Positions 11,601 through 38,200 of a stretch of DNA of 64,000 bases are shown here, piece by piece. Each line of letters opens with the position of its first letter. The stretch's first letter is position 1. Source of the stretch: Balanoglossus misakiensis (taxonomy: Eukaryota; Animalia; Hemichordata); assembly GCA_040954595.2 (NCBI GenBank), contig CM082586.2:4657125-4721124 (forward strand), in the 5' to 3' direction. The position numbers and the translations under genes are program-made. Below the pieces are notes generated by a model that did no database searches, was not told the DNA's origin, and saw nothing but the letters and a program-made list of their open reading frames with translations.

Positions 11601-13184
11601 TATCTTCGTCCACCCGAAGAACTGCAGCACCCTGACCCTGGCGTCGTTGTGTAACACATCGGACCCGATGATGCGGCTTGTCAGAGGGACGCCGTCATCG
11701 AACAGACCGGGTGAAGATGTTCTCGTTTCCATCTTGTTCGTGAGAATTTTTGTACCATTGAGAAGAATGGCTATTGTTAGAGTTTTGTAAATTTTAATTT
11801 CAGCTTATATGATTTTATCGAGAAGTATCTATGGAGGTCTGGTCGGGACAAATTCTATTATTCGTGTAAAAGGTGGTCTTGTCTGATAAATAGTTATAAA
11901 TTGGTAACGTCGTTGCTCAGATATTCCGATAGGTTTTCTATGACAGTGAGTGACATAGTGAGTGAGTCGGGCTGAGTTGGTGTCTGGTTGGTTGGTTGGT
12001 CGGGTGAGTGGTTGGTTGGTTGGTTACATCGTATGTATGGATGTATCACTGGATGCGTATTAGCGTGTTGTGCTACTTGTACTTACCTGTACGAGGTTGA
12101 AATATCGAATGAATGGCGAGTAGGCATAGCTTGCCGCGGAACACGCTGCCCCTAAGATGGCTGATTTCTTCGGCGGCGTCGTTATGGCCTCAATCGTCTC
12201 CCGAACAACCGTGTCGGCGTCACACTAAAATGTTAACGGTACAGACGTTGTCGTTCACTGATTTTAATGCCCGTGCTACTTATCCCCCCCCCCACCCGAC
12301 ACACACACGTGCACGTTAGGTTACAAAACAAAAGTCGATATCCTTATCTATATTCACGTTTTCAAGAATATACAATCGAAGCATTGCAGATTTGAGATCA
12401 CGGCGCTGCCATTCAATAGGGCGTGGGCCAGTTGCCATGGTTCCAAAGGACGCACTTCATCCACCGCTGAAGGAGCACCATGAAAAAATCTGCAATCTGT
12501 TGTGGAATTATCTTCGTTCGATTCTCTTGTATAGTGTTATTCTTGCACGGAAATCTTCTGACTTTGGACAATTATTTGAATATCAAACTGTTTACGTGCA
12601 GGAGTTAAAAAAAACTGCATTGCAGATAGTAACTTTTCAAAGTTACATTAAATTTGTATGTGTTTTTTCAATATTTAAATGGTAATACAGTTGTACATAA
12701 TAACTGCTGTGCGGGGGTGAAACCAGAACACACAATAACGTCCGATATACATGACATTTTGTATAAAGCACCAGTTATAAAATGTATCTGAATGGATTTG
12801 GCCAACGGCGCCGCTGTTTATAAAATCAAACGATGCGGTTGTGAGTGTCTGAGAAATCGGCACTTTTGGCCGCAAATTACCAAATCACCAAGGCAACGGA
12901 TCATAGAATTTATCATGTAACGGTTGAATACTTACGTCGGAAACGATCCACGATATTTGGATGTCGATGTCTCCAGTGCTGCTGGAACTGATGTTACGGA
13001 AATCGTTGAGAGATCTGCCGGCAACGTCTTGCACTTCCCGCGGCGATGGTCCCCAGTCCCGCGTCACTATGCCGAGCACCGTCAGCGGCAGATGGGACTC
13101 GCAGCGTGCGGGTCGCGGCAGAAGGAACGGGAGAGAGACGGCGAGGGTCAGCCAGCCGATGCCGAAGCTGCGCAGACCACCCAT
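5641..13184 (-). CDS. Divergent GABA-B-receptor-like class C GPCR (signal peptide, Venus flytrap, 7TM, C-terminal coiled coil), about 965 aa
   Basis: 18 exons join in frame (2898 nt): 12936-13184, 12087-12224, 11565-11732, 11317-11421, 11136-11201, 10151-10348, 9851-9973, 9243-9350, 9018-9081, 8752-8835, 8452-8602, 8089-8215, 7867-7980, 7516-7638, 7097-7260, 6739-6901, 6285-6518, 5641-6159. GABA-B-type motifs: LGAACS, FGWTKIATI, YGARYVW, YDGIWALALAL, FEGRTGHVRFD, FTFGYGSMCIK, YKGLL, NETR. There is no Cys-rich domain between the flytrap and TM1. Confidence 0.88.
7298..7400. repeat. (TACA)n microsatellite in a GPCR intron
   Basis: Long acat/taca run read directly. It explains the spurious MYVCMYVC and HTYIHTYI ORFs. 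Confidence 0.97.
7818..7856. repeat. (GGA)n microsatellite in a GPCR intron
   Basis: aggaggaggaggaggaggcggaggagggaggaggaggag read directly. Confidence 0.9.
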
Positions 13185-13837
13185 ACTTTCGGCAAAACGA
13201 CCAAAAGTCTCCAATCCCAGCGTTTTGACAGCTAACAATTCGCCAACGGAGATGGATGACTTCTTAATGTCTTGCACAGAATCGCAACAAAAAAAACATC
13301 ACGAAGAGAGCGAAATTTGCTCGTGTTGTGTAGACAGCCGCCGGTTCCTGATATGTAGAATTATTAAAAAATCCCTTGTCGTTTTACAAAGCCCTTGTAA
13401 TGCGACTCCAGAGGCAAAAGTGATAATTGTGATAATTTTGTGTCATTACGCCTTTCCTGCACGCAATCACGTGATAGTTATGTAAATGTTTACTTTTATG
13501 TTTTCAACGCTCGCCAGCCCCTCGCCTGCACGTGTTTTTCCTAAGTTTTATCATACAATTAATTGCACCACGCCCAAGACGTTTATCAGTGACGGAGCAG
13601 TCAGCAGCATAATGTCATGAAAATCATACTCTGTATATATAGGCAGTGTAGATGTTTACTGAAGCAAGTGTTCTCCCTGGAGTCAGTTTATCTTTGAACG
13701 GTCTGTCTGCTTTGTTCACGGTTTAAAATTTAATCATTTTATTGAAAATGTTACTACAGAAGTACACGCACCGGTGAAACGATGATGAATGTTCATATGG
13801 AAACGCATCCTTACGAGTTGTTTTTATAAGATAAGGG

Positions 13838-16451: not shown

Positions 16452-17446
16452 CTAGTCCACTTTCTCCATTTCAATGTCAAGGTTAACAGTCCGGGAACCT
16501 GAATGAGAGAAAATTAAAATTAATTCACCATCTTAGGCATAACGGATGTGGGTGTCAAAGATTAAACTGGTTTTCTTTCTAGCTCTTTTTCTGCCATCTT
16601 AAGGGGTACAGTTCTCTTCAAATGTTTTTTTGAAAATCATGTGAGGACATTGTAACTTTACTTACCCCATAATGAGGAGTTTATTTTCTCCCCAGTCAGA
16701 TACAACGCCAGCATGAACACTGCATTGAAGATGAAAAATAGAACGAAGTACGGCCCTGACAGAACTTTCATGAAGCCATAGACCCATATTTCCATGACAA
16801 AACCTAGGTATAAAATCCTGCAATTCAAAATAAACAAACTCTAGGTAAAAGATTAGAAAAAAATGCATAAAAATGAGAAACTGTCAGACCAACATTTGGC
16901 AAGAAAATTTGTGGTGAAAATTAATGAGACTGCATCCCTTTAACAATGCAACTTACCAAAACAAATAACTTAATCCTACAAAGAGTGTACCAGTGATTCC
17001 AGACTGCCTGGAGGGATATTTATGCCTCACAAAATACAACTCCAGCAGCAAGAAGGGTACGACTGTGGTGTGCATTACGTGGTTCAGCCAGGGTGGAAAG
17101 ATTGCGTCTAGGTGCGCTGGGAATACCAACTCTCTGTCGACAGCGTAAATAGCCCAGAACATGATCACCACAATCTGTCAATGGAAGGTAATAATGATTA
17201 GTGCACCAGTGATCTTCTCCCCAGGAATTTCTGATACAGTATTGGCTAATTTACATAACAATTTAATTAATTACATGTATAATAATGTTGAGACCACTCA
17301 AAACTTACCATGCCAAAAGGGAAAGCGATGGCTGCTAAAAACCAATCTCTGAAACTGCGAAATTTCGCTAAAGTTTTACTTCTTTTACTGCATGTCTCGA
17401 CCAAATCAATCAGGCAGCACAAACCAAAATAGAAAGTTTGAAAGTT
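16452..17446 (-). CDS. AIG1: AIG1/ADTRP (FAR-17a/AIG1 family) membrane hydrolase: four shared constant exons (184 aa)
   Basis: Exons 17309-17446 (NFQTFYFGLCCLIDL...RDWFLAAIAFPFGM), 16957-17174 (FWAIYAVDRELVFP...PPWLNHVMHT...HKYPSR), 16666-16817 (WVYGFM...GEKINSSLW) and 16452-16498 (SRTVNLDIEMEKVD*) join in frame. The first acceptor (ttcttttccctcag|AAC) is phase 0. Confidence 0.93.
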
Positions 17447-17858
17447 CTGAGGGAAAAGAAAAGAAAAAAGGGGTAATGGGTACCTGGTAGGATGGATATT
17501 GTTATGTGTGTATGTTTTGCTGTGCTCTGCTGATATACAGTTAGCAAGCAGGCATATGAGCTGTTGTTTACTCCCCAGAAAGTTGATCCAGCAGATTTGA
17601 TTTTGAAAACCAAACCCGTTTACGTTTGGGTCAAAGTGACTTTGGATGAAGCGTTCAGAGGTCGGCGTGACCTGTACCCAGCTAGGGTGTAATACGAACT
17701 CCAGTGCTCCATATTCCGCTGAGATCGCACTGTAGTGAAGTTACGCAAGCGCCATGAAATCAAACAGTAACATCAGATTTTGAATGGACGTTGTACCAGC
17801 ACGGATTTGTCGATTGTCTCTGCCTTTGGTTTTTTGGGTGGCTTTGCAAAATACTCAC

Positions 17859-18017
17859 CAAATTCCACGTTGTTAAATATTTTGCCCCGCCACCAAAGGT
17901 ATGCTTCCGCCGATGCGACACAAAAGACTCGTAAAAGTAATGAGTGTACATATAGACAATGAATATCGAAAAGTGTCCCAACTGAAGTGCGGGTACGCCT
18001 TTTCGGGTGGACGCCAT
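17859..18017 (-). CDS. AIG1: AIG1/ADTRP variable first exon V5 (proximal), 53 codons
   Basis: MASTRKGVPALQLGHFSIFIVYMYTHYFYESFVSHRRKHTFGGGAKYLTTWNL followed by donor gtgagt, phase 0. Confidence 0.88.
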
Positions 18018-18313
18018 GTTACACGCGGAACTCCGCCTACCTAGCGGGCGCGCTTCTCAACGTCGCGTCGGTTTCGTGAATGAAAGGTCATGTCACTTTG
18101 CCGGCGAGGCGTTCGACATGTTCAAGTGCATTGATTTTCTGAACATCTGTTAGTTTCCCAACACCAGTGCCCGATCCGCAGTTGCTGAACACCATACAAT
18201 ATCAGTCTCCTATCATGTACAAATCGGTTGATTTTCTGTGACCGATCGTGGAATTTGTGCCGGGGTCGATGCATGTTGACAAAAGAGATCATTCATTACA
18301 TTGTAAAACTTAC

Positions 18314-18460
18314 CAAATTCCACATCGTCAAAAATGCTGCCTTATTCCTCACTATTTCAGGCATGTACGGAGCTATGTTAATGTTATGGAAATATCTGGC
18401 ATAAATGTACACACAAAAGATCACCAAGTGGCCACACAGACGAAGTGGAAGGGACGCCAT
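18314..18460 (-). CDS. AIG1: AIG1/ADTRP variable first exon V4, 49 codons
   Basis: MASLPLRLCGHLVIFCVYIYARYFHNINIAPYMPEIVRNKAAFLTMWNL followed by donor gtaagt, phase 0. Confidence 0.82.
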
Positions 18461-19045
18461 TGTGAAATGTGCGCGTGTTTGCGCGCTTGCAATGTACATA
18501 TGTACGCAGGACGCGGGGCGCGGAGTCGTCGCCCGTGGGCGCACTGCACCGCAACACATACAGTATACAGTTGTATTTGTAGCTGCGCAGGACAGTTTTC
18601 CCCAGGGGTGGAGGGGGTGGGTACTTCATAGTCAGGGAGATAAATACGTGCTGTCCAATATCTGATTGGATTAATGTTCAGTGGTTTCATTTTCTTTAAT
18701 TTCATTTTAATATGGTACGATCAACTCGTGTTGCGACCGATCACAATAGTTCAGTGATCCGTGTTGCAGTTTCACCGAAAGAATAAAGAGGATTAAACTA
18801 TGAAGTTACATAACATAACACCGTCCTGCGATCCTAGTATTAAACAAGTTAAGTCCTGGTTTCTTCCACATAAAACTGTTATAGCACAAGAGTGAAAGGA
18901 AAAACACCTGTTATTGGCGTAGATAGACACAATTTTGCGTGAATAGGTCTACCTCAATTCCCCCCATAAGACATAATACGAGAACAAAGGATCACAAAAG
19001 AAAAGATTACGGGAACGTGTAAGCTTATATGCGTGATTAACCTAC

Positions 19046-19204
19046 CATATTCCAGAAGGTTAAATATTTAAAATTTCCACCGAACGTAATCCCGATTCTC
19101 TCTTTCACCCAGGCGCGCACGATGACAAGATCGTAGTAACAGGCGAACAAATACAGCCCTGTCACCAATAGGTGGTAGGGTGTCAGCAGCGAAGACCGAG
19201 ACAT
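19046..19204 (-). CDS. AIG1: AIG1/ADTRP variable first exon V3, 53 codons
   Basis: MSRSSLLTPYHLLVTGLYLFACYYDLVIVRAWVKERIGITFGGNFKYLTFWNM followed by donor gtaggt, phase 0. Confidence 0.9.
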
Positions 19205-20323
19205 TTTCGTGTCGAGTCGGCGGTGTGTGGCGAGGGCAACGACTTCTGGTTGCGCTATCTCTCCGATACGTACGTGTACAAATGACAACTGAAAACAACG
19301 TGGCTCTTTCATTAACGTAACATTGCACAACCAAGTTTGCATAATGACGCATCGATATATCGTTGTTCTCCTTGTATTATAAGAGCACTACCATCTTCCT
19401 TCATGAGCTCGAGGTTTATTATCGAATAATTTACTTTATACATGCAGTATGTTATCTCAGTTTCTGAGGGATGACTTAATCATCAATGTTTTCCGATATT
19501 ATCTGATAATTGAAAGTAGCACCGGGTATCTGTCACCTTTTCTCCACCTTCTAGGAGAATATCAGACGATATTATTAACTAAAGCCACCCATATCCGACA
19601 AAGTGATAATGATACAAACTGATATTAGACAAATTCGTAAAATACGCTAATATCATAATGCTCATACATTATAGAGTATTTATACAACATTAAGTGGGGA
19701 CTAATTCAGATTCAGGTACCCAACAGGCCCGTCCGACCGACCCCCTTCCAATACTAGTTTCTAACTTAGAACTTAGACCATAACTGTTTTATCCTACGTA
19801 TCCGATAAAACATCGTGTCGGGCGCCAGTCTCAGTTCCCTATCTAATATTCGACACCAGCTTTATAAGTTCGACGATAAAGGCCACGTCGCCCGGCGTCT
19901 CGGTTATTAGAGTGTAATACGAGAGTAGAGTTGAGACATGTAATGAAAAATAAGTTTTAAGCCAGACAGATCTCTCTGCCAGTCTTGTAGGCCTATCTGT
20001 CGATTTTCACGTCACTCATTCAGTTGTAAACACTAATCGATCCGCAACATGTAAAAACCTTTAGTACATGTGTGTACACGAGTGGCTAAATGTACACTTT
20101 CCGATTTCATCACGAACCTTGAATATAACAAAAATTGACAACACGCATGCGCACCCACGTTTGAGTCCAGCTTCGTATGTGGCTATGTGCCTGTGTTGTA
20201 TGCGCATACTGATGCATAGCTTGTCGATTATCACGATTCCACCAATGCGAACGGAAAAAAATCTGCGACTCATGCGTGGTATATTGCTTTTATTACACGT
20301 GCAAACAATCAGTCGTCACTTAC

Positions 20324-20476
20324 CAAGTTCCAAAATGTCAAATATTGCCAAGCACCGCCGAACTGATGGGCACTCTCCAGCAGGGGATTAACGTAGGCTG
20401 ACCTGTAGGCATACGAACCTACATAAACTACAAACGCGAAGAAATTGTAAGCAGCGATTGCCGCCCCTGCCTGCAT
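20324..20476 (-). CDS. AIG1: AIG1/ADTRP variable first exon V2, 51 codons (absent from the ORF track)
   Basis: Translated by hand: MQAGAAIAAYNFFAFVVYVGSYAYRSAYVNPLLESAHQFGGAWQYLTFWNL followed by donor gtaagt, phase 0. Confidence 0.88.
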
Positions 20477-21018
20477 TCTGCGTTATTTATATCGCTCCAA
20501 AGCTAACAGGTGACAGCCCGATGTTCTCAGTGTCAGTACCGACAAAATAGTAAAAACAAACGTGTGAACACTGGACTTGGAATGGTCATGTGACTGTCTG
20601 TGACCTTTGACACGCATGTCGGGGCCCTGCCGAATACATGTATAAGTACTAATTAGACTATATGTCCATGTCGTATGACCAATGACCGTGATACTGACCG
20701 ACTGAGTGGAATGACATCAGTTGAAAGGTCGATCTGAATGTCATATGACGCGTTAAGCTTATATCGTCCAATGCGATGTTGTTTTAAGTATTCCTGTTTA
20801 TCTCACTTTCGTACGATTCAGCACCAAATTATATTCGAGAACTAAAGAAACAGTGTTGATTGGTTTCCCCATTCAAATCAGTGTAAAAAGCTTCATTTTT
20901 CGTAGGGTCCGGGTACAAACAGTCAAACGTTTCCCCCTTCATATATAACACTCTTCCGGGCTTGACTTCACAACCTCGCAGTCTATCATACAGCACGTAC
21001 ACGTGACGCAACACTTAC

Positions 21019-21210
21019 CAAATTCCAAAAGGTGAGAAATTTCCACTTTCCAGCCCAAGCGGACGGCGGATGAAGCTGCTTCCCATCCGCCGGCCGTATT
21101 TGACGGTTTAGAAAACTATCGTAGTAGTAACCGATGGAAAATACACATAACGCTATAACGTGGACTATGGCACCTATCTGCAGATAGACCTTGACTGACA
21201 AGGCAGCCAT
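21019..21210 (-). CDS. AIG1: AIG1/ADTRP variable first exon V1 (distal), 64 codons
   Basis: MAALSVKVYLQIGAIVHVIALCVFSIGYYYDSFLNRQIRPADGKQLHPPSAWAGKWKFLTFWNL followed by donor gtaagt, phase 0. Confidence 0.9.
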
Positions 21211-23279: not shown

Positions 23280-26200
23280 ATGCCACGTCAAAAACAGACC
23301 AAACCGAAGCGTCTCGAAGGTAAGCATTTTCGCACAATTTTTTGCATTTGAGAGTCAGAACAGATTTGCGAACACGCCCGCCTTGTCCAAGTCTGCCAGT
23401 GTGTGCCAGTTTTGAAGGTAAAACGCCTTGTGTGTTCGTAAAAATATCCGGAAAACATGAGGAATTTCGGGGGAACACCTCATCGTATGTCGTTGGGGTT
23501 CCCTCATTACATATTCACAGTTTTGTATGTAACAGATTCAATGAAGATGAGCTCGTTGTATTGGTCTCCATGGAGAATTTCGGCAACTATGTTGTGTTTT
23601 GATGCTACAGGTTCCATAACTTAGGTATTATGATAAGAGTTGTGTACATTTGTGGTCGTAATTTAGGAAATCACCGAAGGAAATTCGTTGGCGGAATCGG
23701 GAAAGCCTTTTTATAAAAAGCCATGTGGAACATTCCACACAACAGCGGGCGGCAAAGGGTGGCGAGCGAGGGACGTAGTTGTGGTTTTTGCAGTGTTGTA
23801 CCGTGTACACAACTGTACTTTTATGTTTATACTTAATATATTTCGTAACTAGGCGTCTTTTACAAATCATACTTTCACTGCGTCGATAAAATTTAATTTG
23901 CAATAAGTTATTAATTTTGTTTGAGAGTCGACAACCTGCCGACCCCGCGTTTGTGAATTACCAATGACGTCGGCGGGTTTTGTTGATTTCAGTACAACGC
24001 CTTGTTATGTTGAGCTGGTGTGTACGTTGCACATCAGGCCGCGGCCGGTTTGTTGAAGTTTTGCAAATAAGAAAAGAAGAACCTGTTTTATTATGAGAGA
24101 CCATGATGATTTTATGATTAATGATTTCAACCAGTGACGGCCCTGGAGAGTTTTCGCTTATCGAGTGCCCTGAGAGAATTTCACTAGCCGATGTGATATG
24201 CCCGTTATATGCTGATGTGTCTGTACGTACTGACTCACGAGCAATGTCAATGTGGGTGTCGTAAATGTGGTTTCCACACCCCTTTGTCGCCGAATTTGCT
24301 CTAGACCATACCTTTGCAGAATATAGCAATGAGAATCAATATTTATCAATAAAAATCCCACATTTCTCGTTTTGTACAGGCTGGTATGGTGAGCTAAAGT
24401 TTTGCATAATTAGGCATGTAAATATCATAAGTTGTCAATCAGATTTCAATGTCACCGCCCATACACTGCCATTGAGGGAATCCCACATTCGACATAACAT
24501 GACTGCATGTCTGTACTACAAAAAATTGTTGGCATACCAACAAATGGAATAACTGAAGGCCTTTTTCTGTCCTTAATTACCCACCATTACACTGGTAATT
24601 ACAGAAGTATGCTTTAGACAAAGCTATCCAGCAAAAGAAATTATTTCATTTGTTTATAATATGCTTCATCTTACTTTGTTTTCACTTTTTGTGCTGTAGA
24701 ATTGTATGATGGAAATTAATCGTAACAGAGAAATTCTCCAACTGATAATTTATTATTTTGAACATGTGGTTCTAGTTCGGAATATTGCTGTATGGGAAAT
24801 GACGACATATTGTGTCATAGACATGGAAGTATTAATGTATTATATTTTGTCAATATATAGGAAGAATTTGTTCAAATAAATTCTGGCTGCACTATTTTTG
24901 CATGTTGAACGCTTTATAAATTGTATATTTGAAATGTGTAATGTATAAAAATTAATATAAACTGGCATAGAATTAGAAGCAATAAAGTTTGAGTGAATGA
25001 TGATTATTTTTAGTACGCTACATTGTCCACGTACGGGTAAGGTGTTGAGGGACAGTTTTATTCTATGTCAGGGGTTGTATTAGCAGGTAAAGGATGAGTT
25101 AGACTGAAATCATAAATTTCATGTCGCGTTGCACGATACTAAGACATCATGTTGGCTTCATGGGTTGAAATAGAAATGACGAAAACAATAATCCATGGAA
25201 AGAACTTGCCATTTGTGTGGAGGGGAGGTATACAGGAAAACAAAATATTTATAGCAAAGTGGAGAGTGTATTCTCAGTGACAACAGACGTCACAGTTTCT
25301 CTATTTATAGAATAATGATCTGCTGTCCGCTGGAAATGTACATATACAGGTCATTGAGCAAGACTCCTGTTTTGTGCAAAATAATATTTTGAATCGAAAG
25401 AAAATATTTCCTCATTTCACACCACGGTATTTCAATGTGTGTTGAGTTCTGGTAATATTCTGTCAATCTCATTAAAATGAGAGTCACTACTGTTGGAAGA
25501 TTGCTTTCAGTCAGATGTGATAATTAATTGTCAAGTAGGTCGGTATTTATTGAGTGATCTATTTCATACAGGAAGATCCTGTTTCTCAAACGCCATATTG
25601 AAAATTGCCGTATTGTTGAACAATAGTTATTCAGTGCGCTATGATCGGTGACAGTGACTCATCAAAGGATGTCATTTCTGTTGTATGCAAATGAGTGGCA
25701 TTATGCAAATGAGTATGCTAATCATCAGACCGCACAGGCCTTGATCGGTTGTTTCAGATAGTGACATTTGCTTTCCTGTGTTATCGTAATGAATCATTGA
25801 TAGCCGTTAGAAACATGAAACTGTAATGTAAGGGATATACACCTGCATGTGAAGTTTGCTTTACATTTACCTTTGTACTTTTAAAATAATGATGAGATAA
25901 TTTTCCTTAATGAGTTTCATATTGCCAAATTTAATACGACAGTTGATATCACTGCCGATCAAATGTGAGCCCTTGTGTGCATAAAAAAAATGACCATCGG
26001 TTGATATCCCCATCTTAATCATACCTGCAAATGTGTGCAGTGTATACATTCTTTCTGAAATTATTTGCAATCATAACAATCAATTCTATACCATGGTATG
26101 ATACTTTACATGTACCAGTAGGTTTGTGTCAAATTTCAAATGTATGTGTCTTGTAATGAAAACTAACATAAAAGAAAAATAATACGTCCATTCATATTTT

Positions 26201-29200
26201 ATCAATGGAAATATATGCCCGGGAGATCTGAAGCACCTGTAATTGTATCTGTCCATTTCCGACATCACGGAATCAATTGAAAGAATGTGTATATAAGGAG
26301 CAACTTACTCAAATTGAGTCAGGTGATGATGATAACATGTACTTGATACTCGTACTTGCCCTGTGTTGCCTCGTTGGTGGCAAGGTTTTGATTGAAAATC
26401 AGAATTTGTTAGATGGTTAGATGATTGATTGATTTATTGATTGGGAATTCTTACAAGCTTGTGCAGATTGCATTCTTTTTCAGACTTGCAATTGTATTTA
26501 GAGAGATACTGTTTGTGTTGGTTACAATGTCGTTTAGACATTGTTGATTGGTTGCTGGTTGATGATATCAACATTAGGGTGTTAGTGTGTTGGTAATTTG
26601 TCACTTGTTTGGTGGTCAGACTATCTATAGTAGCCATAGAGTATATCAGTTCTGTGAGCCTTTGTGGTTTACTTTCATGAATATTCATAACATGAACTGT
26701 CAACATTGGAATTTGGTTTCGTTTTGTGCAATTACCTCAGTTTATTATGTTCTAAAATTACTTTCGCTTTAACATAAAACCGAATGCAAGTACCTATTAT
26801 ATCATATTATTAGTAATTAAATTTGTAGTTTCAGTGTCAGCAAAAAATGCAGGTTTTGAGTTGGAATTATCGGTGTAAAAGTATACAGCGATAGTCACTT
26901 TGGTTGTCTGTTTTGATATTTGTTTTGCGAAGTAATTATTGAAGTATATGTCTACTGTCTGTGTGATCAGTCAATCATAGATCATTGTAAGCAATCTCAA
27001 AACTTAAGCATTTTACCAGAAGAACTTTAGAAGGGATGAAACTAGTCATATGTACAACAAACTCAGTAACGTTTGATGAAATTCTCATGCGAAAAGATTT
27101 AAAGATATGCTGCTTGATTTGAATTTAAGTCTCATAGAGATGGATTGAGTCACCAAGCATGTAGCCAACAATGGCTTCTTTCAGTCAGGGCTTCCTCACT
27201 CAGTAGAAAGGTCAGCAGGGATTCCAGAGAGTTTTTGAAGTTTTGAGGTCAAAGGTCAGCTGGCTGGAGCCTAGCAACCCTGGCAACTTGCCAAGTTTGT
27301 ACACACAGCGTTGTATGTTAATCTCAGAAAATTACGACTGTGAGAAGGGGGGTACGTCCCGTCCCATATATAAATTGGGACAGCTGTGATCTTGCGTGAC
27401 CCAGAAGGAGAGAGACGGAGCCTTCGACATAAAATGTCGCTGTACCCCCCTGTATTTACAAATCTACACTTCCCCCTGGTAGGGCTTTCCCGCATTACCA
27501 AATATGGTGGCTGAATGCCAGTCCTGTGAATGCTCAGCTCCTTTCAGCCATGCCGTGGTTGTCACATGGCGTGTACCTGTGGGTTAGGATATGGTGTGAT
27601 GTGAGATCATAGTTCTGGTCAGGCCATGTCATGCTGTGATGATCTGCCTCTGTGAATGATAAGAGTTCATATCACTATCACCATTCCTAGGAATATAATA
27701 TCGTGGATTCAAGTGATTGATTATGTACAGGTTGCCCCCCATTCTGTACACCCTTGGAAAGAATTGATATTGTGTGTCACTAATAGTATTAGTAAAACCA
27801 GGACATTTGCCAGATGCATGTACTTATAATGCATCTGCTCTTGCATGTCAAGCTAGTCTGTGTGTTGTCCCCCTCCATCACCAAGCATGACCTTGCTTAA
27901 CCTACACTACAGCCACTGGGTTTCAGGTCAAGCTCGTCTACAGCCCCAATCTCTGAGGTCACCCAATTGGCCAAAGTCAAAAGACATGTCCCCATACTGT
28001 ATGCGAGCAATAAGACATGTTCTACATGTAACTGCACCACAGGTTTGGCAAAAAAGGTGGACCCTGATCTCACTAAACCAGCAATCTGGCCCGCTGACAA
28101 GAAATGCCTTGAAAGTTGGTTGACCCTTGCGTGCGTATGTACACATTGTGAAATGTTGAATTCTTTATTTATGAGTCATAGAGGGTGTTTCCTATATACA
28201 GTGTCCATGTATACCATTCATGTCGTGACCTGACACATTTAGATGAGTAGCCCCCATAGCCCATGCAAAGAGCACATTATGTATGTGGGTTTGTTATAAC
28301 AGTCAAACAATTAAAAGATGGACAACCATGTAATTTACAATATATTGTAAATCAACTTAGTACCGGTACATGTATATTTACAATGCATGGTTCATGTTGG
28401 ACACAGTAAATTTTAACAGGAAATGGCAAGTCTGAACTTTTGTCTGTTTCTCTCTTTATTGTAGATAAGCGAGAAGAAGCTAAAGGTCTCCTTAATTCTA
28501 AGGATGGCAAAGCAGGTGTGTGGATCTTCATTTTGAAATAAAGTGTACATCATTATGAAATGCTGTACAATGTACATTGTACATGTATTTGTTCCAACTT
28601 TCATGCATGGTTTTACTTAAAATGCAATTGATGTGCTCAGGTTGTCAATTTTCTTACAACATAAACATTTGTAAAACCAGTTCTTTTATAATTAATGTCT
28701 TTGTGTTCTTTTGTTTCTGTCAGGCAACAGTTCAAAGGACACTGGCGAAGCAGGATCTGATGGACCTACCCCGGCTAAAAAGCCGAGGATAGAACCTGTA
28801 AGAGCTAAACAGAAAGGGAGGAAGAAGGAACTAGCAACGTCTGGGAGATCAAAAGGGCGGCGTTCACAGAAGAATCTGAAAGCAGCCTTGAGGAGTCAAC
28901 CGAAGAAGATTGCTCCGAGTGAAAACGACGACGGGCAGGTCAGACATAGGACTCGCAGGTCTGCGGAGAGCGAGGTTTTGACACTGGGATTGGAGAGTAG
29001 TACTCACATGGACAAGTATGATCGTATCAAATCGCGATCTGCGAAGCTTCAAGAAGGCAAGGAGAACACGGACAAGAAGAAGCAGGAAAGTCTTTCTCCG
29101 GGTACGGAAAGAGAGAAGGCTGTGTGTGAACCGGAGCCAGGCGCCGGGTCAGATGTGGAAATGCCGATTTTACATCCGGTCACTTTACAAGAAGCTGTGC

Positions 29201-32200
29201 CGGACAAAGGAAAGGATCCGCGGGAAAGCGAGAACAAGCGGGAAGCGGAGGGCGAATCGAACCCCGAAGAGGACGTCTCGAGAAAAAATGCGCTGGAAGC
29301 ATTGCTGCAGATTACGCACAGCGAGTTGCACACCTTGTCAGCCAAGGAACACGAGCAGCAGATGTATTGCCAACATGCCAGAGACTCTGAGCAGTCGCAG
29401 CTGCTGCAGCAACAGATTGCGCAGCAACAGGAGGCGGTATTGCGGCACCAGCAGCAGCAGCAGCAGCAACAACAGCAGCAGCTAGCCAGGGATGATGCTG
29501 CAGCTAATGACGAGAGAGGCGCTGTCTCCGGCAGCTACAACAGATCCGCTGTGAAAGTTTCGGACAGCGACAAGGGCATTGTGAAGTACCAATTGAAATC
29601 AGACAGTCTTGAGGAGCAGGGACTGAAGTTAGTGTACACTGCACAGACAGGGGATCAAATCGAGCATAATCCTGTCAGCTATGGCGCTTACAGACCGAGG
29701 AAGTCGAGCAAGCCGTTAGACCCCATGAGGGAGGTCGTGAAAAAAGACAGTAAACCACCCAAGAAACCTGGCAGACATATCTGCCAGTTCTGTGGTAGGG
29801 GGTGTGCCAAGCCCAGTGTACTGAAAAAGCACATCCGATCTCACACAAATGAAAGACCCTATCCGTGTAACATTTGTGGGTTTGCGTTCAAGACCAAAAG
29901 TAACCTCTACAAGCACAAGAAATCGCACGCCCACGCCATCAAGGCGGGACTGGCTCCAAATTTGGACGAAGCCACCAAAATCATTGACTATGCGGATCAA
30001 GACAACCTCGATGACTCTGAGACGGATAGCGACGATGACGACAGCGGCACCGGTGGAAGTCCCGAGAGCAGCTTCTCCAGCCATCATGTGCCGAGACAAT
30101 GCGAGGGTGACGTGGACGATCAGACGTACCCTGAGAGAACGTGCGCGCCGATGACGCAGCAGTTTCTTCACGGACACCCCATGCAGGTACATCCCCACAT
30201 GCAAGGGGGCGCCATGCCAGTCTATCTCATGCCGCTGCAGGCGGTGTACTCGGGCGACGCGAGGTTGATGTACAACACTGTAGCTGGCCACGCCATGATG
30301 GGGCAGACGCTGGTGGAAAATCGGGCCGCGCAGGACAATCAAGTTGAGCCGGAAAAGGGAAGGCCGCTGCCTCCGGGCTTCTACGTTGAGCCAGCGTTTG
30401 AATCAAATGACAAATACCAGGACAGCAGAGTCAAACCCGAGGAAAGCCCGCCCGTGGTAAATGAGCAGAAGAAGGAAACGTGTGATGAAGCAGAGCAGAG
30501 TGTAGCCCAGGAAGAGGAGGTGGCCACCTCGAACAGTAAACCGGAGGAAAGTGAACAATCTGAGGCTCAGTCGGGCAAAGAAAACAGAAACTCTTTCCCG
30601 CCAGACAACGTGGCTGGATTTCAGATCGACATGCAGACGGGCAAAGCTGTGCCAGTGACGCACAATCTGACGCCGCAGTCCACAGCGCCCCCAGCGGGCA
30701 AAGTCAGCACGTCCGGGGATCCCGGTGCTGCCACCGAGGGCGCCGCACCGCAGACCCCCAAGAGTCTGGACAGGCAAAGCCTGACGGAGAGGATTAAGCA
30801 GCTGATCTCGCAGAACCAGGCCATCGTGGACAACCCGATTCTGGAGAGCGTGAAGCCCCGGCGGATGGCCGGCTCCAGGAGAGAAAGTGTGGACAACATC
30901 ATCATCACCACAGAAAGGGGAGACGGTACAGTCTCCGTGACGACGAGCAAAGAACAAAGCAAAGTGGGTGACTCTGTCGACCACAGAGCGGGCAACGATG
31001 CTCCGACGCAAGCAAAGGAGGTCAAGCCTAAGAAAGAGAGAAAGCGAAGGAAAGACAAATCGAAAGTTGTGGAGAACCCCGATACGAACCCAGAGTTGCC
31101 AGTTACAGTGCCACTTGATTCAAGATTAGCAGCTGAAATGCAGAGGGATGTCTCTGAGGCTATGATGCCAGGAAAGAAGGACGTCATCAGGAGTATCCTG
31201 ATGCAGGGACGGGAAGAACAACCACCCCACCTTTGTAGTGTTTCAGTGCCACAGACTACAGGGGTAAACATTGCCAGTCCTACACAGTACTTACATGTAG
31301 GCGAGAAAATGAAACTCTATCGGGAGATTCCTCCACCGAGTGCCTTTGACATGAAGAGTGTCCGTCATGGCGCTAAAGCTCCAGGTATGCCATTACTTGG
31401 GCCGCACATGATTCCCCACACCGGAGCAGAATTCCACTTGCAAGAAGTTCCGCCGGTTAAAAGGCAAGGCACCCGGAAACCAAGGAGAAGGAAAGAGAAA
31501 AAGGAGACCGGAACGAATGTTCCAAGCAGCGAGAGTTCGTGCCAGTCGGATCATTTCCAGGAGGCCCACAAAGAGATGTTGGCAAAGGTGAAACAAATAG
31601 CAGGACAGCACATTGCCGCCAAAACTCTAGCTCAGGAAATCTCCGTGATACAGCACACAAATGCAGTGCCGAACATTCAGGGCCAAGCCGATACCAACAA
31701 AAGAGGTGAACTCCAGGATTCTACAGGCATGAATCATGAGATAGCTCGACAGCCGTTAACTTTTCCAACTACTTCAAGCGGTCCTTACTTACAGCCATCG
31801 GAGGGGTCGGTTGAGGAGAATTCGTCCATATTGAAACTTTACGAAATGGCAGGGACGACGATTGAAAAAGCAGAGCCTGCTACCCAAAAGAAACCACTAG
31901 ATTTGAAACATTCTCCTACTTTAGAGAAGTCTGACGAACAATCATCAGTACAAGGAAACGTTCTTGTAGATGAAACTGTGCCTTCTAAATTCCAAGTGAT
32001 CAACCCAATCAAGGATGAGGAGAAAATGGGACAAGGGCGCATTATAGATTACTCACAACTGCCTCCATTAGACATTTCAAAACTTGCCTCTCCAAAGTAC
32101 AGAAGTTATGAACCACCTACAGAAGCCAATGTCATTTCTAAGCCTCAGCCTGTTGTTGACGGTGTAAGCCAGGCACCTGCTCAGTTACACCATAAAGTGA

Positions 32201-35200
32201 CTGACTACTCCAGGATAGCCCCACTGTCAGAGGACATTGTCTTTCCCACAAACAAGAAGGCAAAGAAACACAGAACAAGTTCGCTGACTTTGGAGATTCT
32301 AAGCACCCCTGTTTCAGAATCTGCAAAGGTGGACAGTTTGAAAGCCGTGGCCGTCAAAGCAAAGAGGATCTCAACAGATGTTTCCAGCACCGCTGTCGTG
32401 ACGCCAACAGCCATGACGGTGTTATCATCACCACCGATGTCCTTTCAGTTTGACGGGAAACCACCGCCAAATGCTGTCACTCCGGTCACGCCTCGAGCAA
32501 CAACGTTGCCGTCATTTGCAGTTCAGGCAGTCACGGTGTCTCCGGCTCAGACCCGGGGAACGCCACTCTCCCCTGCTGCCGGACATCCAGTATCCATCCC
32601 GCCAACTACCCTCTACGAAGTGTCCATTCCTTCAACCCCTGTAACGCCTGTCCCTGTCTTGTCCCCAGCTGTGTCTCTCCCAATCAACATATCCACAGTG
32701 TTATCGAAGCCTGTCTCTTCTCTTCCTGAGAGCCCTGCTCCGTCTCACCAGAGCAGACCTGTGGTCCTGTCGCCTTTATTGCCGAGGCAGTTATCAAGCG
32801 GTCAGATCATTGCCACTGTATCTCCCACAACCGCGACATCTGGGCAGGTCTTCAGTCTTGGACATGCGCCTGTGAAGACATCACCAGACGCAGCAGGAGG
32901 GCCAATTCCACCTAAACTTCTGATCTTCCGACCTGGCGAGCCGATTGCTGTGACGGCGCAGAGAATAACGACTCCAGTGACCCCAGGAACACCGGTCGGT
33001 ACAATTCTGTATGCCCATGTGCCGTATGGAAATACTCCAGCAACTCTGCAAGCGCTTACTCACGTGACTTTCTGCTGCCTGCAGCGACCTCAACCGATGT
33101 ACGTCGAGCAGGGAGCCAATCACGCCATCTCGATGTACTCCAATTGGAGGGTTGGGAATCAGAACACAAATCCCCTCGGCATGCCGACAAAAGTGCTGCT
33201 GTCGCTGTACAACTCCATGAGAAGGAAGAAGACGGGCTGCTTCTATGTAAGTGCCGCCATCACTCCACGCGGATCAGGCAATCTGACACATTCAAGCCTG
33301 TGGAACTATACCTACAGCACCAAAACTGAAGAGGCCGACGCTAATACGGAAACGGAATCAGTGAAGTCACCAACGACCTCTGAGGGGAACAGCGAGGTCA
33401 AAGCCGTCCCACAGCCCGAGCACCCTCAGGAGAATATGATGCAGGAGCTGATAGAAAGGAAAATCAAGGAACGGAAAATGAAAGAACTGCTGGAGAAAAG
33501 TGAGCCCAGTCGTATCCCCATCTTCGAAGGTGGATACAAGTCCAACGAGGACTATGTTTACGTGAGGGGGCGGGGACGTGGCAAGTACGTGTGCGAAGAA
33601 TGTGGCATTCGGTGCAAAAAGCCGAGTATGCTGAAGAAACACATCCGAACCCACACAGATCTCCGTCCGTACCACTGTAAATTCTGCAACTTTTCCTTCA
33701 AGACCAAAGGAAACCTGACAAAGCACATGAAGTCGAAATCACACAACAAGAAGTGTCTGGAAAACGGCATTCCCATTGACGGCGACCCGGATCATTCCTT
33801 TGACAGCTCTACGTCCAGGATGGACGGTCTGGATGACGACCACCAGTTCTCTGACGATGACGACGATGAGGAAGGAACGGACTCTGCTGATTCGGAATCC
33901 GAGGGAGAACACGACGACGATTATTCGGAGCAGCCGATGGAGATCGACTCGTCGTCATCGGATTCTACGTCCGCAAGACTCAAGCTGGATCACCAGCCAG
34001 CGTTTGTTGCCATGGCAATGCCGGGCGAATCGGCACCGGATATCAAGGAGCTGGCTGCACCTCACATGTCACTGTCATGTGCGCCGTCGTCCACCACCAC
34101 TACCATAGTGTCCGGACACAACTTTGGACAGGTGCAAATCAACCAAATGCCAGAGACCCTGTTAGATAGCACAGCCAATGCGGATGGATCTTCCCCCACT
34201 GGAGAAACGCCCAAGAAGGCGGGACGGCTCGGCGGTCTGATCGATGCCTTGAAGACCAGAACAAAGTCGCAGTTTGATCCTGTGACTGGCCAGGGCAAAG
34301 ATGATGACGCTGGTCAGGAGAGCGAGGCAAGCACTAGTGACGTTGCTGCCAAAAAGCCGGAACCGTCTCCGGAGAACCCAGCTCAGCCAACCGAGCGGAA
34401 ACTCACGAAATCTGAAGTCGTCGGGAAACTCTCGCAGCACCTGAGTAACAAACACCAGCTCAACCTCCAGAAGCAAATGGCAGACAGACAGATGATTCAG
34501 CAGTTGCTGCAACATCAGCAACAGCCGGACAGCCCGTCAACAGATGGCAGGTGGAACGCACAGCGATTAAATCCTGGGTACTCATCAGCGGTGGTGTTGA
34601 CTCCACACCAAGGAAGCCTAAATTCTGCAAACCCGAGACCCATCTTAGACAAGTACGGACACATCACTCCACCTTTGCCGTATCTGTCAAACATGTACGC
34701 GTACCGCGTCTCCACGAGGGTCAGCGACACGACTCTCGGCCAGCAGCTGGTCCAGTCCAAGCCGTCCGCCGCGTTGGAAGTGAAGAGCGACGGTACACCG
34801 ACAGAGAGCCAGAAACCAACCAGCCCAAGTGTGGTGAGAGCACAACTTGCGATGCCTGCCGTCTCGCTCAGCAGCGTCATGTTGACAACCCTTGTACCCA
34901 GCAGCACCACTCAGGCATCCCAGCCAGTCACCGATCAGACTAGAGTGTCTCAACCCCAGGTTTCAGTACCCATCCCTGTACAACAAGCTGCCACCACTGT
35001 ATCTACTGTCTCGGCTGTTTTCACACCACCTGTTAGCACGGAACCAAAACCTGTTGTATCGAATGTACCTCCGAGACGAGCATCTACCCCAGTGACACCC
35101 CCTGTTTCCTCTGCAGACATAGCAACAGATTTAAGCTCTAAACCAGTCAGCAGCACAGCATCATCCTCTTCCACACCTTCATCAGCTGCACAGACAGCGT

Positions 35201-38200
35201 TATTTTCACTCTCGCCAAGCAATCTCTCAACCACATTCATCCAAGGACCCAAAGTTATAGTACAGCCAGTGAACACAAACTCAGTTGCAGTGCAGTCTCT
35301 AGGCATCGGCTCGACAACAGTGGCATCCAGCACACTACCTCAAATTCCGTTAACCTTCACTGGGGGTAACATGGCCATGTCATCTGCTCCTTCAAGGCCG
35401 GTGAGCAAGGAAGAGACTAATCGACTGTATTTTCCACCAGGAGCTCATCGAGCAGGCACTTCTGCAGGCTTTGCTGTTCCAAGTCCTACTCTGGTCATGC
35501 AAGATTTTCCTCGATCTCACAGCGCCTCTGAGGAACCAAAGAAGGGTACTGTCGGGATTCCGAAGTCGAGCAACAGAAAAGGTAACACGAGGAAGGATGA
35601 AGCTGCCAAATCGCCTGATGTGAATATGCTAGGGCCTGCAGGAAAAGAATTGTACGACATGGCCAAAGTGAACGTTAAGAAAGAAAAGAAAGGTGCAGAG
35701 TCAGTCTATACCTATGAACAACCACAGCAGTCAGGGACTGTACATGGAAAGAAGAAGCGACCAACGTCGTTGTTGCCTGCTACTTCGACTGGCTTTGCCG
35801 TCCTGCAGCCTGCTGCTCCATCTACGAGTGTCAACACAACCCTACAGCAGGAGAGTCCACCGGGTACCAAAGCGAAAGTCCCACCGCCGGACACTGAACC
35901 GATCTCCGACGATGAGGAGACCACTACGCAGCAGGAGAGCAACTTGCAGTCATCCGGAAGAGGTGACGCCAGAGAAGAGGTTGTTTTGTCACAGAGCAAG
36001 CTACACAACCTGCCCATCCCGTATCACTTGTTAGGAGGAGCAGTGTCGTTGTCATTACCGCATCAGATGACACCGATCATGAGTACATCACCCATTCTTT
36101 CTGCGAGGGTATCTCAACAACCCCAGAACTTTGACCCCAAATCCAGTACTCTTCACAGCGACCAAAGACCAATAATGTCCATATCAGCTTCGTCACCGCA
36201 AGCGCAGTTTGCACACAGTGCTGCGAGCTATACACCCTACATGAAGGGAACAACATCGTTTCCCACACATCAGCAGGCGGTTGTGGAGACAGTATCCCTG
36301 TCTCAGACACAGATGTCAACAGGAGCGGCTGCACTTCCGTACCATCAGCATATCTTGAGAGCCACTGTGGCCCAGCAGAATTCACCAGGCCGACAAAAGA
36401 AACAGTTGCACCAGCCTGCTTCCTGCGAACCACAGCAGCATTCTATCATCGGAGCAGCACTGAGCCAACAGCAGACATCCCCTCCTGCGCAACATTCTAC
36501 AGGGCCAACGATTCTGCATCAGAACCAGTCCCAGCTCCGATCTGAACTGTCTCCGCTGCAGTCACCAAAGTCCAAAAAAGCATCAGAGCACGGTCTCTCT
36601 GACCAAAGCACAGCAGTGAGCCAATCGATGTCGGGAAGTCAGCAAAAATCACCCGAAAAGCCTCTGTCATTTAGTTTCCAGCAGCATTCTGCAAAATCAT
36701 CATCTGTGCCACAGTATGCATCTCCAGGACTTGTATATTCGGCTCCCAGGATGACAACGTCCATACAGCAGTCTGCACTATCACAACAGCAACTGTTAAA
36801 TAGGACAGCAACATCCACCGTTGAGCAAACGCCGTCGCAGCAGCATCATCCCATCATAGCAGCAGCACTGTCGCAGCCCCAGACATCTGCGCACACAACG
36901 TTGTCTTTTCAACCGATGTCACCAAACAAGGTTGGGACGCAGTCGCAGTCCATCATTGCTGCCACCCTCTCTCAGTCTCTGTCTCAGCAACCACAAACGA
37001 TCGGGGCCCACGTGCACAGGCCTGCCAGTGGACACCCCGCCATGATGGCTTCGTATCAGTTGGCCGCCGCTCTTGGTGTGACCTCCGTGCATCAGTCGGT
37101 GGGACAGACAAGCCAGTCGCAGTACAGTCTGCCAGTCAGCCAGCCCACGTCCACTGGGGTCCACGCAGCCTCCAGCCAGACGGTCATTCAGATGCAGATG
37201 GGGTCGGTCATGCTACCGCCAGAAGTCCGCATGACTCAGTCGCTGCAGCTGTCCAAGTCGCCCGGCTCCAGCGCGATCAAGCAGCTGCTGCTCTCCAGGC
37301 CCCCACCGCGTCAGCTCAGCCCCGAAGAAGCCCTGCCGGGCCGGATGCCCAGCACAACCCACCCGTCGACCGCGACGGACGCAGTGAATACAGTCTCGCA
37401 GCCTCTGGCCGTCACGTGTGGGCTCGGCATCCCCCGGATGGTGACAGTGGACAACGCATCTGCCAGCTTGCCGTTGTCGGGCGTCGCCGCACACGTGCTT
37501 CTGGACAAGTCGTCGCCCAAGCCCAGTGCACACGAGACTGCCGAGGATCTGTCCAAAGATCATCCGCCCGCTGCCCAGGGGATGCTGAAATGCACTGTGT
37601 GCTACCGAGACTTCCTGAAGCCCAGCCAGCTGCGTATTCACATGAGGATTCACGCAGATGATAGACCATTCACGTGCAAGGAGTGCTCGATATCATTCAG
37701 GACGAAGGGGCACCTGCAGAAGCACGAACGTTCACAGTCGCATCTATCCAAGGTGGAAGGTGTGGAACTGCCCACAGCGGACAGTCACGACCCTCGGCCG
37801 TTCAAGTGCAAAGAATGCCAGGTGGCGTTCCGGATACCGGGCCACCTGGCCAAACACCTGAGATCAAAGCTGCACTTCAACGCGCTGGACAGACAAGGCA
37901 AGGCGCCCCTGCACCTCCACGACAAGATGGACGACGACGCGTCGGAGAAGAGCCCCGCGTCCGATTCCGAACTGCTCGTGCTGAGCCCCAGCGGGGAGTC
38001 GTCGGACCGGTCCATGAAAACGCCGGATCTGGAAATACCGGATAGCTGCGAACCGCGGAACGAAAGCCGGGAGAATGCACGGGGGACCGTCTGCGGAGGG
38101 AGCAGCAACGAAGAGATGAACAAATCCGAGACGAGAGACGGCGGGGGGAAAGAGAACCAGGCGGGCAACATCCGGGAGGTGAATTCTCCGAGTGAGGTCA

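What the first reader, a model, noticed from the sequence alone, without database searches (positions are those of the whole stretch)
16452..21210. Variable/constant AIG1-ADTRP locus: five paralogous catalytic first exons share one constant region
Seen: five tandem minus-strand exons (21019-21210, 20324-20476, 19046-19204, 18314-18460, 17859-18017). Each has an ATG, one hydrophobic helix, a variable loop and the motif [FY]LT[FTM]WN[LM], followed immediately by a strong phase-0 GT donor. I found no copy of the downstream exons between them; one set of four constant exons starts with a phase-0 acceptor at 17446. This predicts five proteins of 233-248 aa. Established: AIG1 and ADTRP are transmembrane threonine hydrolases for FAHFA lipids, using a Thr nucleophile in the FLT motif and a His base in the NHxxH segment. 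UGT1A and clustered protocadherins use a variable-first-exon layout. Inference: the active site is assembled from a swappable Thr-bearing module and a fixed His-bearing module, giving isoenzymes with different substrate or tissue specificity from one gene. All five frames, Thr codons and donors are intact despite heavy divergence, which argues for selection. I know of no report of this arrangement in this family but cannot search the literature.
Basis: partly seen in the sequence, partly recalled or inferred. Interest (0 to 1): 0.92.

Follow-up and report, generated by a model that had tools for sequence, protein, structure and literature searches.

The report
Swappable catalytic exons in AIG1 enzyme
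One acorn-worm gene for a membrane lipid-cutting enzyme carries five alternative first exons, each with the threonine that is catalytic in the human enzyme, ahead of one shared remainder, so it likely makes five enzyme versions; database gene models show the same layout in many invertebrate groups, and our literature searches found no description of it.

Summary
Five minus-strand first exons (ATG, helix 1, loop, Thr, phase-0 GT) precede a single four-exon constant region with the catalytic His; 5 motif matches against 0.03 expected. The gene is an enteropneust AIG1/ADTRP relative lying head-to-head with a HIVEP-type gene, as in vertebrates. No RNA run was listed for this species, so its splicing is inferred. 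Indirect support is strong: the Ptychodera flava RefSeq gene has six isoforms with one identical constant region, five of them one-to-one orthologues of the window's exons (47-65% identity, against 24-45% off-diagonal). Trees cannot separate one ancestral array from repeated origins. Different substrate specificity is untested (about even odds); by analogy with TMEM164 the acyl-chain pocket would be constant. Verdict: a new variant of the known variable/constant cluster design, present in databases as isoforms but not found in print.

The parts
21019..21210 (-). Variable first exon V1 (64 aa; Thr60, codon 21033-21031); orthologue of P. flava isoform X1
   Evidence: (47% identity, score 129 vs next 61); Pfam PF04750 E 0.0029
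20324..20476 (-). Variable first exon V2 (51 aa; Thr47); orthologue of P. flava X4
   Evidence: 65%, score 183 vs 49; 99/91 support; PF04750 E 0.0014
19046..19204 (-). Variable first exon V3 (53 aa; Thr49); orthologue of P. flava X2
   Evidence: 55%, score 145 vs 76; PF04750 E 0.00063
18314..18460 (-). Variable first exon V4 (49 aa; Thr45); orthologue of P. flava X6; lacks the usual Gly-Gly before the Thr motif in both species
   Evidence: 59%, score 164 vs 90; 99/95; no Pfam hit alone at E<=1
17859..18017 (-). Variable first exon V5 (53 aa; Thr49); orthologue of P. flava X5
   Evidence: 49%, score 107 vs 74; 95/82; PF04750 E 0.0038
17309..17446 (-). Constant exon C1 (138 nt, phase 0/0): rest of helix 2 and start of helix 3; its acceptor is the strongest scored in 16.4-22.5 kb
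   Evidence: (E 9.9e-6)
16957..17174 (-). Constant exon C2 (218 nt): holds the NHxxH segment; the second His (codon 17072-17070) aligns with AIG1 H134
   Evidence: (E 8.3e-24)
16666..16817 (-). Constant exon C3 (152 nt)
   Evidence: E 4.3e-8
16452..16498 (-). Constant exon C4, coding part to the stop codon
   Evidence: C-terminus matches P. flava and Glandiceps models
28696..38307 (+). Neighbouring gene, context only: long reading frame of a HIVEP/Schnurri-type zinc-finger gene, head-to-head with the AIG locus; it bounds the array upstream
   Evidence: best PDB sequence match of a finger pair is human MBP-1, 1bbo, E 1.8e-32 (MBP-1 = HIVEP1 is recalled)

Best explanation
This is one AIG1/ADTRP-family gene with five tandem, paralogous first exons ahead of a single four-exon constant region; each first exon is likely transcribed from its own promoter and likely spliced to the acceptor at 17446, which is predicted to give five six-helix membrane threonine hydrolases that likely differ in where they are expressed and in how the catalytic chamber is tuned. 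Shown in sequence: each variable exon encodes helix 1, the following loop and the first turn of helix 2 with the Thr; the His lies in constant exon C2. Inferred: transcription from promoter i makes exon i the cap-proximal exon, its donor skips the downstream variable exons because they have no strong acceptor, and the Thr pairs with the constant His as in AIG1. Inferred, about even odds: exon-specific residues near the Thr alter substrate preference or activity rather than expression alone. The conserved phase-0 intron four codons after the Thr makes exon 1 an easily duplicated module, which would explain why such arrays are common in invertebrates.
For: Sequence: intact frames, A at -3 of all five ATGs, consensus donors, one constant region, strongest acceptor at 17446. 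Orthologue: six P. flava RefSeq isoforms XP_070534434-39 share an identical 184-aa C-terminal part and differ only up to this junction; five match V1-V5 one-to-one; the window's five exons as one clade are rejected, p-AU 0.0005, so they are older than the split of the two species. Decay model: at 0.25 substitutions per site, which gives the observed ~59% identity, the chance that all five keep ATG, frame, Thr and GT is 2e-7 (substitutions only, assumed distance). Breadth: 33 of 41 species. Short Logan contigs (1.1-1.7 kb) with whole reading frames join two different first exons to one oyster constant region (P0214 and P0217-P0220 vs P0230), which implies spliced sequence. Thr47, His129, His132 invariant in 140 of 140 aligned family members (rows chosen by me). 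Fold: pLDDT 92.5, top match TMEM164 9lw1, Z 13.8, rmsd 3.5, 186 aligned. CpG o/e 0.42 in the constant region vs 1.12 in the variable region, as expected if the constant part is a methylated gene body. Exon-specific residues are shared by orthologue pairs at otherwise conserved columns, for V2, V3, V4 and V5 but not V1.
Against: No splice junction was observed for this species, and I did not see the RNA support behind any RefSeq model. No promoter was shown; the variable region's CpG level is close to the window average (0.95), and a fair acceptor lies 164 nt upstream of the V1 ATG (21374), with weaker ones before V2 and V4. P. flava exon X3 has no counterpart in the window, so exons are gained or lost. 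In TMEM164 the residues that select the acyl chain (F217, F221, M238, P241, A256) are C-terminal, i.e. in the part that is constant here. No dN/dS could be computed. Eight of 41 species showed only one first exon.
Confidence: 0.8

Rival explanations
1. Regulatory multiplication only: all five exons are spliced, but they serve as carriers of different promoters; the five proteins are biochemically equivalent and the loops drift.
For: The acyl-chain pocket of TMEM164 is built from C-terminal helices; helix 1 and the loop are the least conserved part of the family (mean top-residue share 0.28 vs 0.55 in the constant part); V1 shows no conserved exon-specific change at conserved columns.
Against: A new promoter needs only a non-coding exon, yet coding exons were duplicated and kept. 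V2, V4 and V5 keep exon-specific residues next to the Thr or at the end of helix 1 in both species, and V2's Arg and Gln recur in a third, unnamed hemichordate-like sequence. In TMEM164 the helix that likely corresponds to helix 1 lines the catalytic chamber and carries E106.
Confidence: 0.35
2. One shared upstream non-coding leader and mutually exclusive splicing choose the variable exon, rather than separate promoters.
For: Acceptor-like sites lie at 21374 (score 20), 20626 (16.5) and 18543 (15.5), upstream of V1, V2 and V4.
Against: No acceptor among the 25 best lies within 250 nt upstream of the V3 or V5 ATG; the three true downstream constant acceptors score 19-21 and C1 24.5; 150-nt stretches upstream of V3-V5 are CpG-rich (o/e 1.2-1.6). 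The score is my own crude one.
Confidence: 0.12
3. Only one exon is used; the others are relics of duplications or pseudo-exons.
For: No RNA was seen for this species; P. flava X3 has no partner here.
Against: One-to-one orthology with five annotated P. flava isoforms, intact signals in all five, decay probability 2e-7 or less.
Confidence: 0.04
4. Assembly artefact: a tandem array of whole genes was collapsed onto one constant region.
For: Read depth could not be checked; some molluscs and a midge do hold whole-gene duplicates.
Against: Four of the five gaps (542, 585, 296, 412 nt) are shorter than the 995-nt constant region and the fifth (1119 nt) has no similarity to it; no N and no DNA-level repeat among the exons; independent assemblies of many species give the same layout.
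Confidence: 0.02

Closest known systems
Human AIG1 and ADTRP (Pfam PF04750, FAR-17a/AIG1), Thr/His FAHFA hydrolases
   Same: Domain, Thr (AIG1 T43) and His (H134) positions, six-helix core, neighbourhood of a HIVEP-type gene.
   Different: Vertebrate clusters examined (shark, frog, tarpon) show one first exon; vertebrates diversify by three paralogue classes (PMC8394805). FAHFA activity is untested for any protein here.
Vertebrate UGT1, UGT2A and GCNT2 multiple-variable-first-exon clusters (PMC1885805, abstract)
   Same: Tandem paralogous first exons, one constant region, an enzyme whose variable exon carries a catalytic residue (UGT1A1 H39) and birth-and-death turnover of exons.
   Different: There the variable exon encodes a whole substrate-binding domain and the organisation is described as vertebrate-specific. 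Here it is about 50 residues, the junction falls inside a transmembrane helix, the two residues of the dyad lie on opposite sides of it, and the layout is found in invertebrates of both bilaterian branches.
Clustered protocadherins and chelicerate sDscam 5' cassettes (PMC4835542, passages)
   Same: Tandem 5' variable units spliced to constant exons; promoter choice is shown there.
   Different: Cell-recognition proteins with tens of variable units; sDscam cassettes expand species by species, whereas these exons keep one-to-one orthology between species.
TMEM164, ATGY superfamily (PDB 9lw1; PMC12830759; bioRxiv 2022.07.06.498872)
   Same: Same fold (Z 13.8, rmsd 3.5, 186 residues); nucleophile on core helix 2, His on core helix 4.
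   Different: Cys nucleophile, acyltransferase, 8% identity; used here only as a guide to which helices line the pocket.

Membership tests
AIG1/ADTRP (PF04750) | Far-17a_AIG1 domain | tested here: met
   C1, C2, C3 each pass the curated cut-off; 4 of 5 variable exons hit profile positions 3-43 below the cut-off, V4 alone does not
AIG1/ADTRP (PF04750) | Thr nucleophile at AIG1 T43 | tested here: met
   All five exons; aligned to a 238-aa bird AIG1 with T43; residue numbers from PMC8123165
AIG1/ADTRP (PF04750) | His base at AIG1 H134 | tested here: met
   Second His of the NHxxH segment in C2; invariant in 140 of 140 rows
AIG1/ADTRP (PF04750) | Six-helix ATGY fold | tested here: met
   Modelled on the P. 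flava orthologues X1 and X4, not on the window's own isoforms: pLDDT 74 and 92.5, TMEM164 top match Z 11.9 and 13.8
AIG1/ADTRP (PF04750) | FAHFA hydrolase activity, fluorophosphonate reactivity | not testable with these tools
   Needs expression and assay
Variable/constant first-exon cluster (UGT1, Pcdh type) | Tandem paralogous coding first exons with same-phase donors | tested here: met
Variable/constant first-exon cluster (UGT1, Pcdh type) | Single shared set of constant exons | tested here: met
Variable/constant first-exon cluster (UGT1, Pcdh type) | Each variable exon is spliced to the constant region in transcripts | tested here: inconclusive
   Not observed for this species; met indirectly by P. 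flava models and oyster Logan contigs
Variable/constant first-exon cluster (UGT1, Pcdh type) | Own promoter before each variable exon | tested here: inconclusive
   CpG profile and acceptor scan only
Variable/constant first-exon cluster (UGT1, Pcdh type) | Isoforms differ in expression or specificity; diversifying selection | not testable with these tools
   No expression data and no orthologous DNA for dN/dS; exon-specific conserved residues are a hint

The most novel reading that the evidence does not exclude
AIG1/ADTRP is a bilaterian-wide variable/constant enzyme locus: since the last common ancestor of protostomes and deuterostomes, or repeatedly in each phylum, animals have diversified this lipid hydrolase by swapping the nucleophile-bearing first module onto a fixed His-bearing core, giving isoenzymes with different substrates; vertebrates dropped the array and use paralogues instead. 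The arrays would then be a natural panel that maps what sets specificity in a family with no solved structure and no known invertebrate substrate.
Probability: 0.4. Interest if true: 0.85.

Novelty: new variant of a known kind. Interest (0 to 1): 0.68.

Why it matters
Variable/constant clusters are a textbook device known from a short list of genes. This adds an integral-membrane enzyme whose catalytic dyad is split across the junction, in hemichordates, echinoderms, lophotrochozoans and insects. The one family phylogeny I found removed alternatively spliced sequences before analysis, so the real enzyme repertoire of invertebrates has likely been undercounted. Because isoforms of one locus differ only in about 50 residues, they allow a clean test of what helix 1 and its loop contribute to substrate choice in AIG1/ADTRP enzymes, and beetles, mosquitoes and oysters offer tractable systems.

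Tried and rejected
No genome is held for the window. No RNA holder was listed, so no reads were laid; this is no evidence either way. A sixth exon, the partner of P. flava X3, was sought and not found; a weak profile hit at 26089-26304 lacks the Thr motif. Homodimer prediction, prompted by the TMEM164 dimer, gave no verdict. Trees of 51 columns do not reject monophyly of the exons of hemichordates (p 0.11), echinoderms (0.31), Ambulacraria (0.51), lophotrochozoans (0.51) or insects (0.55), so one ancestral bilaterian array is neither shown nor excluded. Per-species monophyly was rejected for 4 of 4 insects (p 0.002-0.027) but for 0 of 5 lophotrochozoans (p 0.05-0.24). The tblastn queries had a frame slip in the joined constant exons; corrected. 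Parsons et al. 2016 was not held. Earlier scan notes held nothing on this layout.
Full report
OBSERVATION. The five exons are as described: ATG, open frame, length divisible by three, Thr-x-Trp-Asn-Leu/Met at the end, then a consensus donor. The codon pattern with GT occurs 5 times against 0.03 expected, 0 of 100 shuffles reaching 5. All five ATGs have A at -3. Four constant exons give 184 codons and predicted proteins of 248, 235, 237, 233 and 237 aa. The window holds one constant region and no sixth variable exon. The exons are only 22-39% identical to each other as protein and show no DNA-level similarity, so they are old.

IDENTITY. The constant exons and four of five variable exons hit Pfam PF04750. 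The closest protein is an AIG1-like protein of Ptychodera flava (86% in exon C2; 78% over the constant region), then Glandiceps, so the window is from an acorn worm. A 3203-codon zinc-finger frame lies head-to-head upstream, its best structure match being human MBP-1; AIG genes next to HIVEP-like genes are reported for lamprey and cartilaginous fish (PMC8394805). Alignment with a 238-aa bird AIG1 puts the Thr at T43 and the second His of NHxxH at H134, the residues named catalytic in PMC8123165.

IS IT SPLICED? No RNA run was listed for the window, so this is inferred. The P. flava gene has six RefSeq isoforms (XP_070534434-39) with an identical 184-aa constant part and six different N-termini ending at the same junction. 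V1-V5 match X1, X4, X2, X6 and X5 at 47, 65, 55, 59 and 49%, against 24-45% for the other 25 pairs; X3 has no partner. Holding the window's five exons in one clade is rejected (p-AU 0.0005). That RefSeq isoform models normally rest on RNA alignments is recalled; I did not see that support. Independent of gene prediction, Logan contigs of 1.1-1.7 kb carry whole 240-aa frames that join two different first exons to one oyster constant region (P0214, P0217-P0220 vs P0230), and two Logan contigs do so in a sea cucumber (P0035, P0005). I infer these are spliced RNA; their run type was not shown. A substitution-only decay model gives 2e-7 for five intact exons at 0.25 changes per site and less at larger distances.

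HOW WIDESPREAD. Among 41 named species for which I retrieved two or more models, 33 have two to six different Thr-bearing first exons on a constant region that is identical or nearly so: Ptychodera 6, Amphiura 6, Lingula 5, Apostichopus 4, Haliotis up to 4, Crassostrea 4, Patiria 3, Patella 3, Agrilus 3, Periplaneta 3, Magallana 3, and 2 in Glandiceps (both short at the 5' end), Asterias, Owenia, a chiton, clams, a mussel, Tribolium, Harmonia, Anoplophora, two orthopterans and two mosquitoes. Eight showed one: two bugs, two Musca, a spider, a shark, a frog and a tarpon. The set is biased, since I chose clusters with several members, saw only the best 120 of 371 and of 403 hits and at most 15 members per cluster; counts per species are lower bounds and a single exon is not proof of absence. 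Amphioxus, tunicates and cnidarians did not appear among named hits.

ONE ORIGIN OR MANY. A tree of 90 first exons (51 columns) is weakly resolved. Exon classes cross species inside groups: for 52 of 71 exons the best match in another species of the same group beats the best paralogue; per-species monophyly is rejected in 4 of 4 insects and 0 of 5 lophotrochozoans, although the lophotrochozoan tree splits into two halves (82/82) with each of seven multi-exon molluscs but one represented on both sides. Monophyly of each larger group is not rejected. So the arrays are old within groups and turn over by birth and death; a single bilaterian origin is open. Repeated origin is plausible because exon 1 with its promoter and a phase-0 donor can be duplicated without disturbing the frame (inference).

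MECHANISM. A deep-alignment model of the V2 orthologue (pLDDT 92.5) shows helix 1 at 4-32, a short loop, helix 2 at 46-70 starting with Thr47, and His132 ending helix 125-132; the exon junction (51/52) falls inside helix 2. Its top match is TMEM164 (Z 13.8, next 9.0), in line with the ATGY superfamily, where the nucleophile is on core helix 2 and the His on core helix 4. In the TMEM164 structure the catalytic chamber is lined by TM2, TM3 and TM5, TM2 also forms the dimer interface, and acyl-chain selection is by residues 217-256. The aligned ranges (model 3-221 on chain 85-280) suggest that helix 1 here is TM2 there; I had no residue-level superposition. The variable exon would thus change one wall of the chamber and the loop above it, not the acyl pocket. 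Orthologue pairs keep exon-specific residues at otherwise conserved columns: V2 four (including Arg for Asp at -23 and Gln for Lys at -3), V3 two, V4 three, V5 four, V1 none. This hints at tuned chemistry but rests on two species. For exon choice, the acceptor at 17446 is the strongest of the region and V3 and V5 have none nearby, which favours separate promoters; CpG depletion is confined to the constant region. Both are weak tests.

WHAT IS KNOWN. Variable/constant clusters are known from UGT1, UGT2A, GCNT2 and protocadherins (PMC1885805, abstract) and sDscam (PMC4835542, passages); duplicated initial exons occur in Drosophila genes (PMC3228551, passages, no mention of AIG). UGT1A1 already has a catalytic His in its variable exon. 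For this family I found no description in nine searches (listings only unless named). PMC8394805 (first seventh of the text and passages) removed alternatively spliced sequences and contains the word 'isoform' 0 times; its supplements were not opened. Also read as passages: PMC8123165, PMC12830759, bioRxiv 2022.07.06.498872. CG3625 as a fly homologue is recalled; its six listings were not opened. Subscription journals and exon databases such as Kassiopeia were not searchable, so a catalogue entry may exist.

VERDICT. Real, and broader than reported. The architecture is secure, splicing of all five exons is likely (about 0.9), separate promoters likely (about 0.8), different substrate preference about even. 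It is a new variant of a known kind, visible in RefSeq but apparently undescribed. Interest 0.68.

Noticed in passing
P0246 and P0303 (Owenia fusiformis); P0055 (Pinctada imbricata): The two Owenia models differ in the His-bearing segment as well as in the first exon, and the Pinctada model holds two copies of that segment: the other half of the dyad may also be duplicated in some lophotrochozoans.
   Followed up: partly
P0005 (unnamed Logan protein, constant region like Holothuria leucospilota): An alternative first exon with Gly at the Thr position: a possible catalytically inactive isoform.
   Followed up: no
P0237/P0253 (Pecten), P0009/P0113 (Nucella), Babylonia and Elysia models: Different first-exon types sit on different constant regions, i.e. 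separate genes; shared-constant arrays and whole-gene duplicates may interconvert.
   Followed up: partly
P0001 (Clunio marinus, 974 aa): A fused gene model with two first exons before the first constant region, followed by three further AIG-like units.
   Followed up: partly
window 28696-38307 +: A 3203-codon uninterrupted frame of a HIVEP/Schnurri-type gene, head-to-head with the AIG locus; the vertebrate AIG-HIVEP linkage appears to predate vertebrates.
   Followed up: partly
window about 5641-13298 -: A class C GPCR-like gene downstream (weak 7tm_3 hit).
   Followed up: no
window 354-1334 + and 4082-4990 +: An MFS transporter fragment and a DXD-motif glycosyltransferase frame.
   Followed up: no
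P0022, P0049-P0053 (Nezara, Halyomorpha): These bugs vary the last exon instead of the first: three different C-terminal tails.
   Followed up: no
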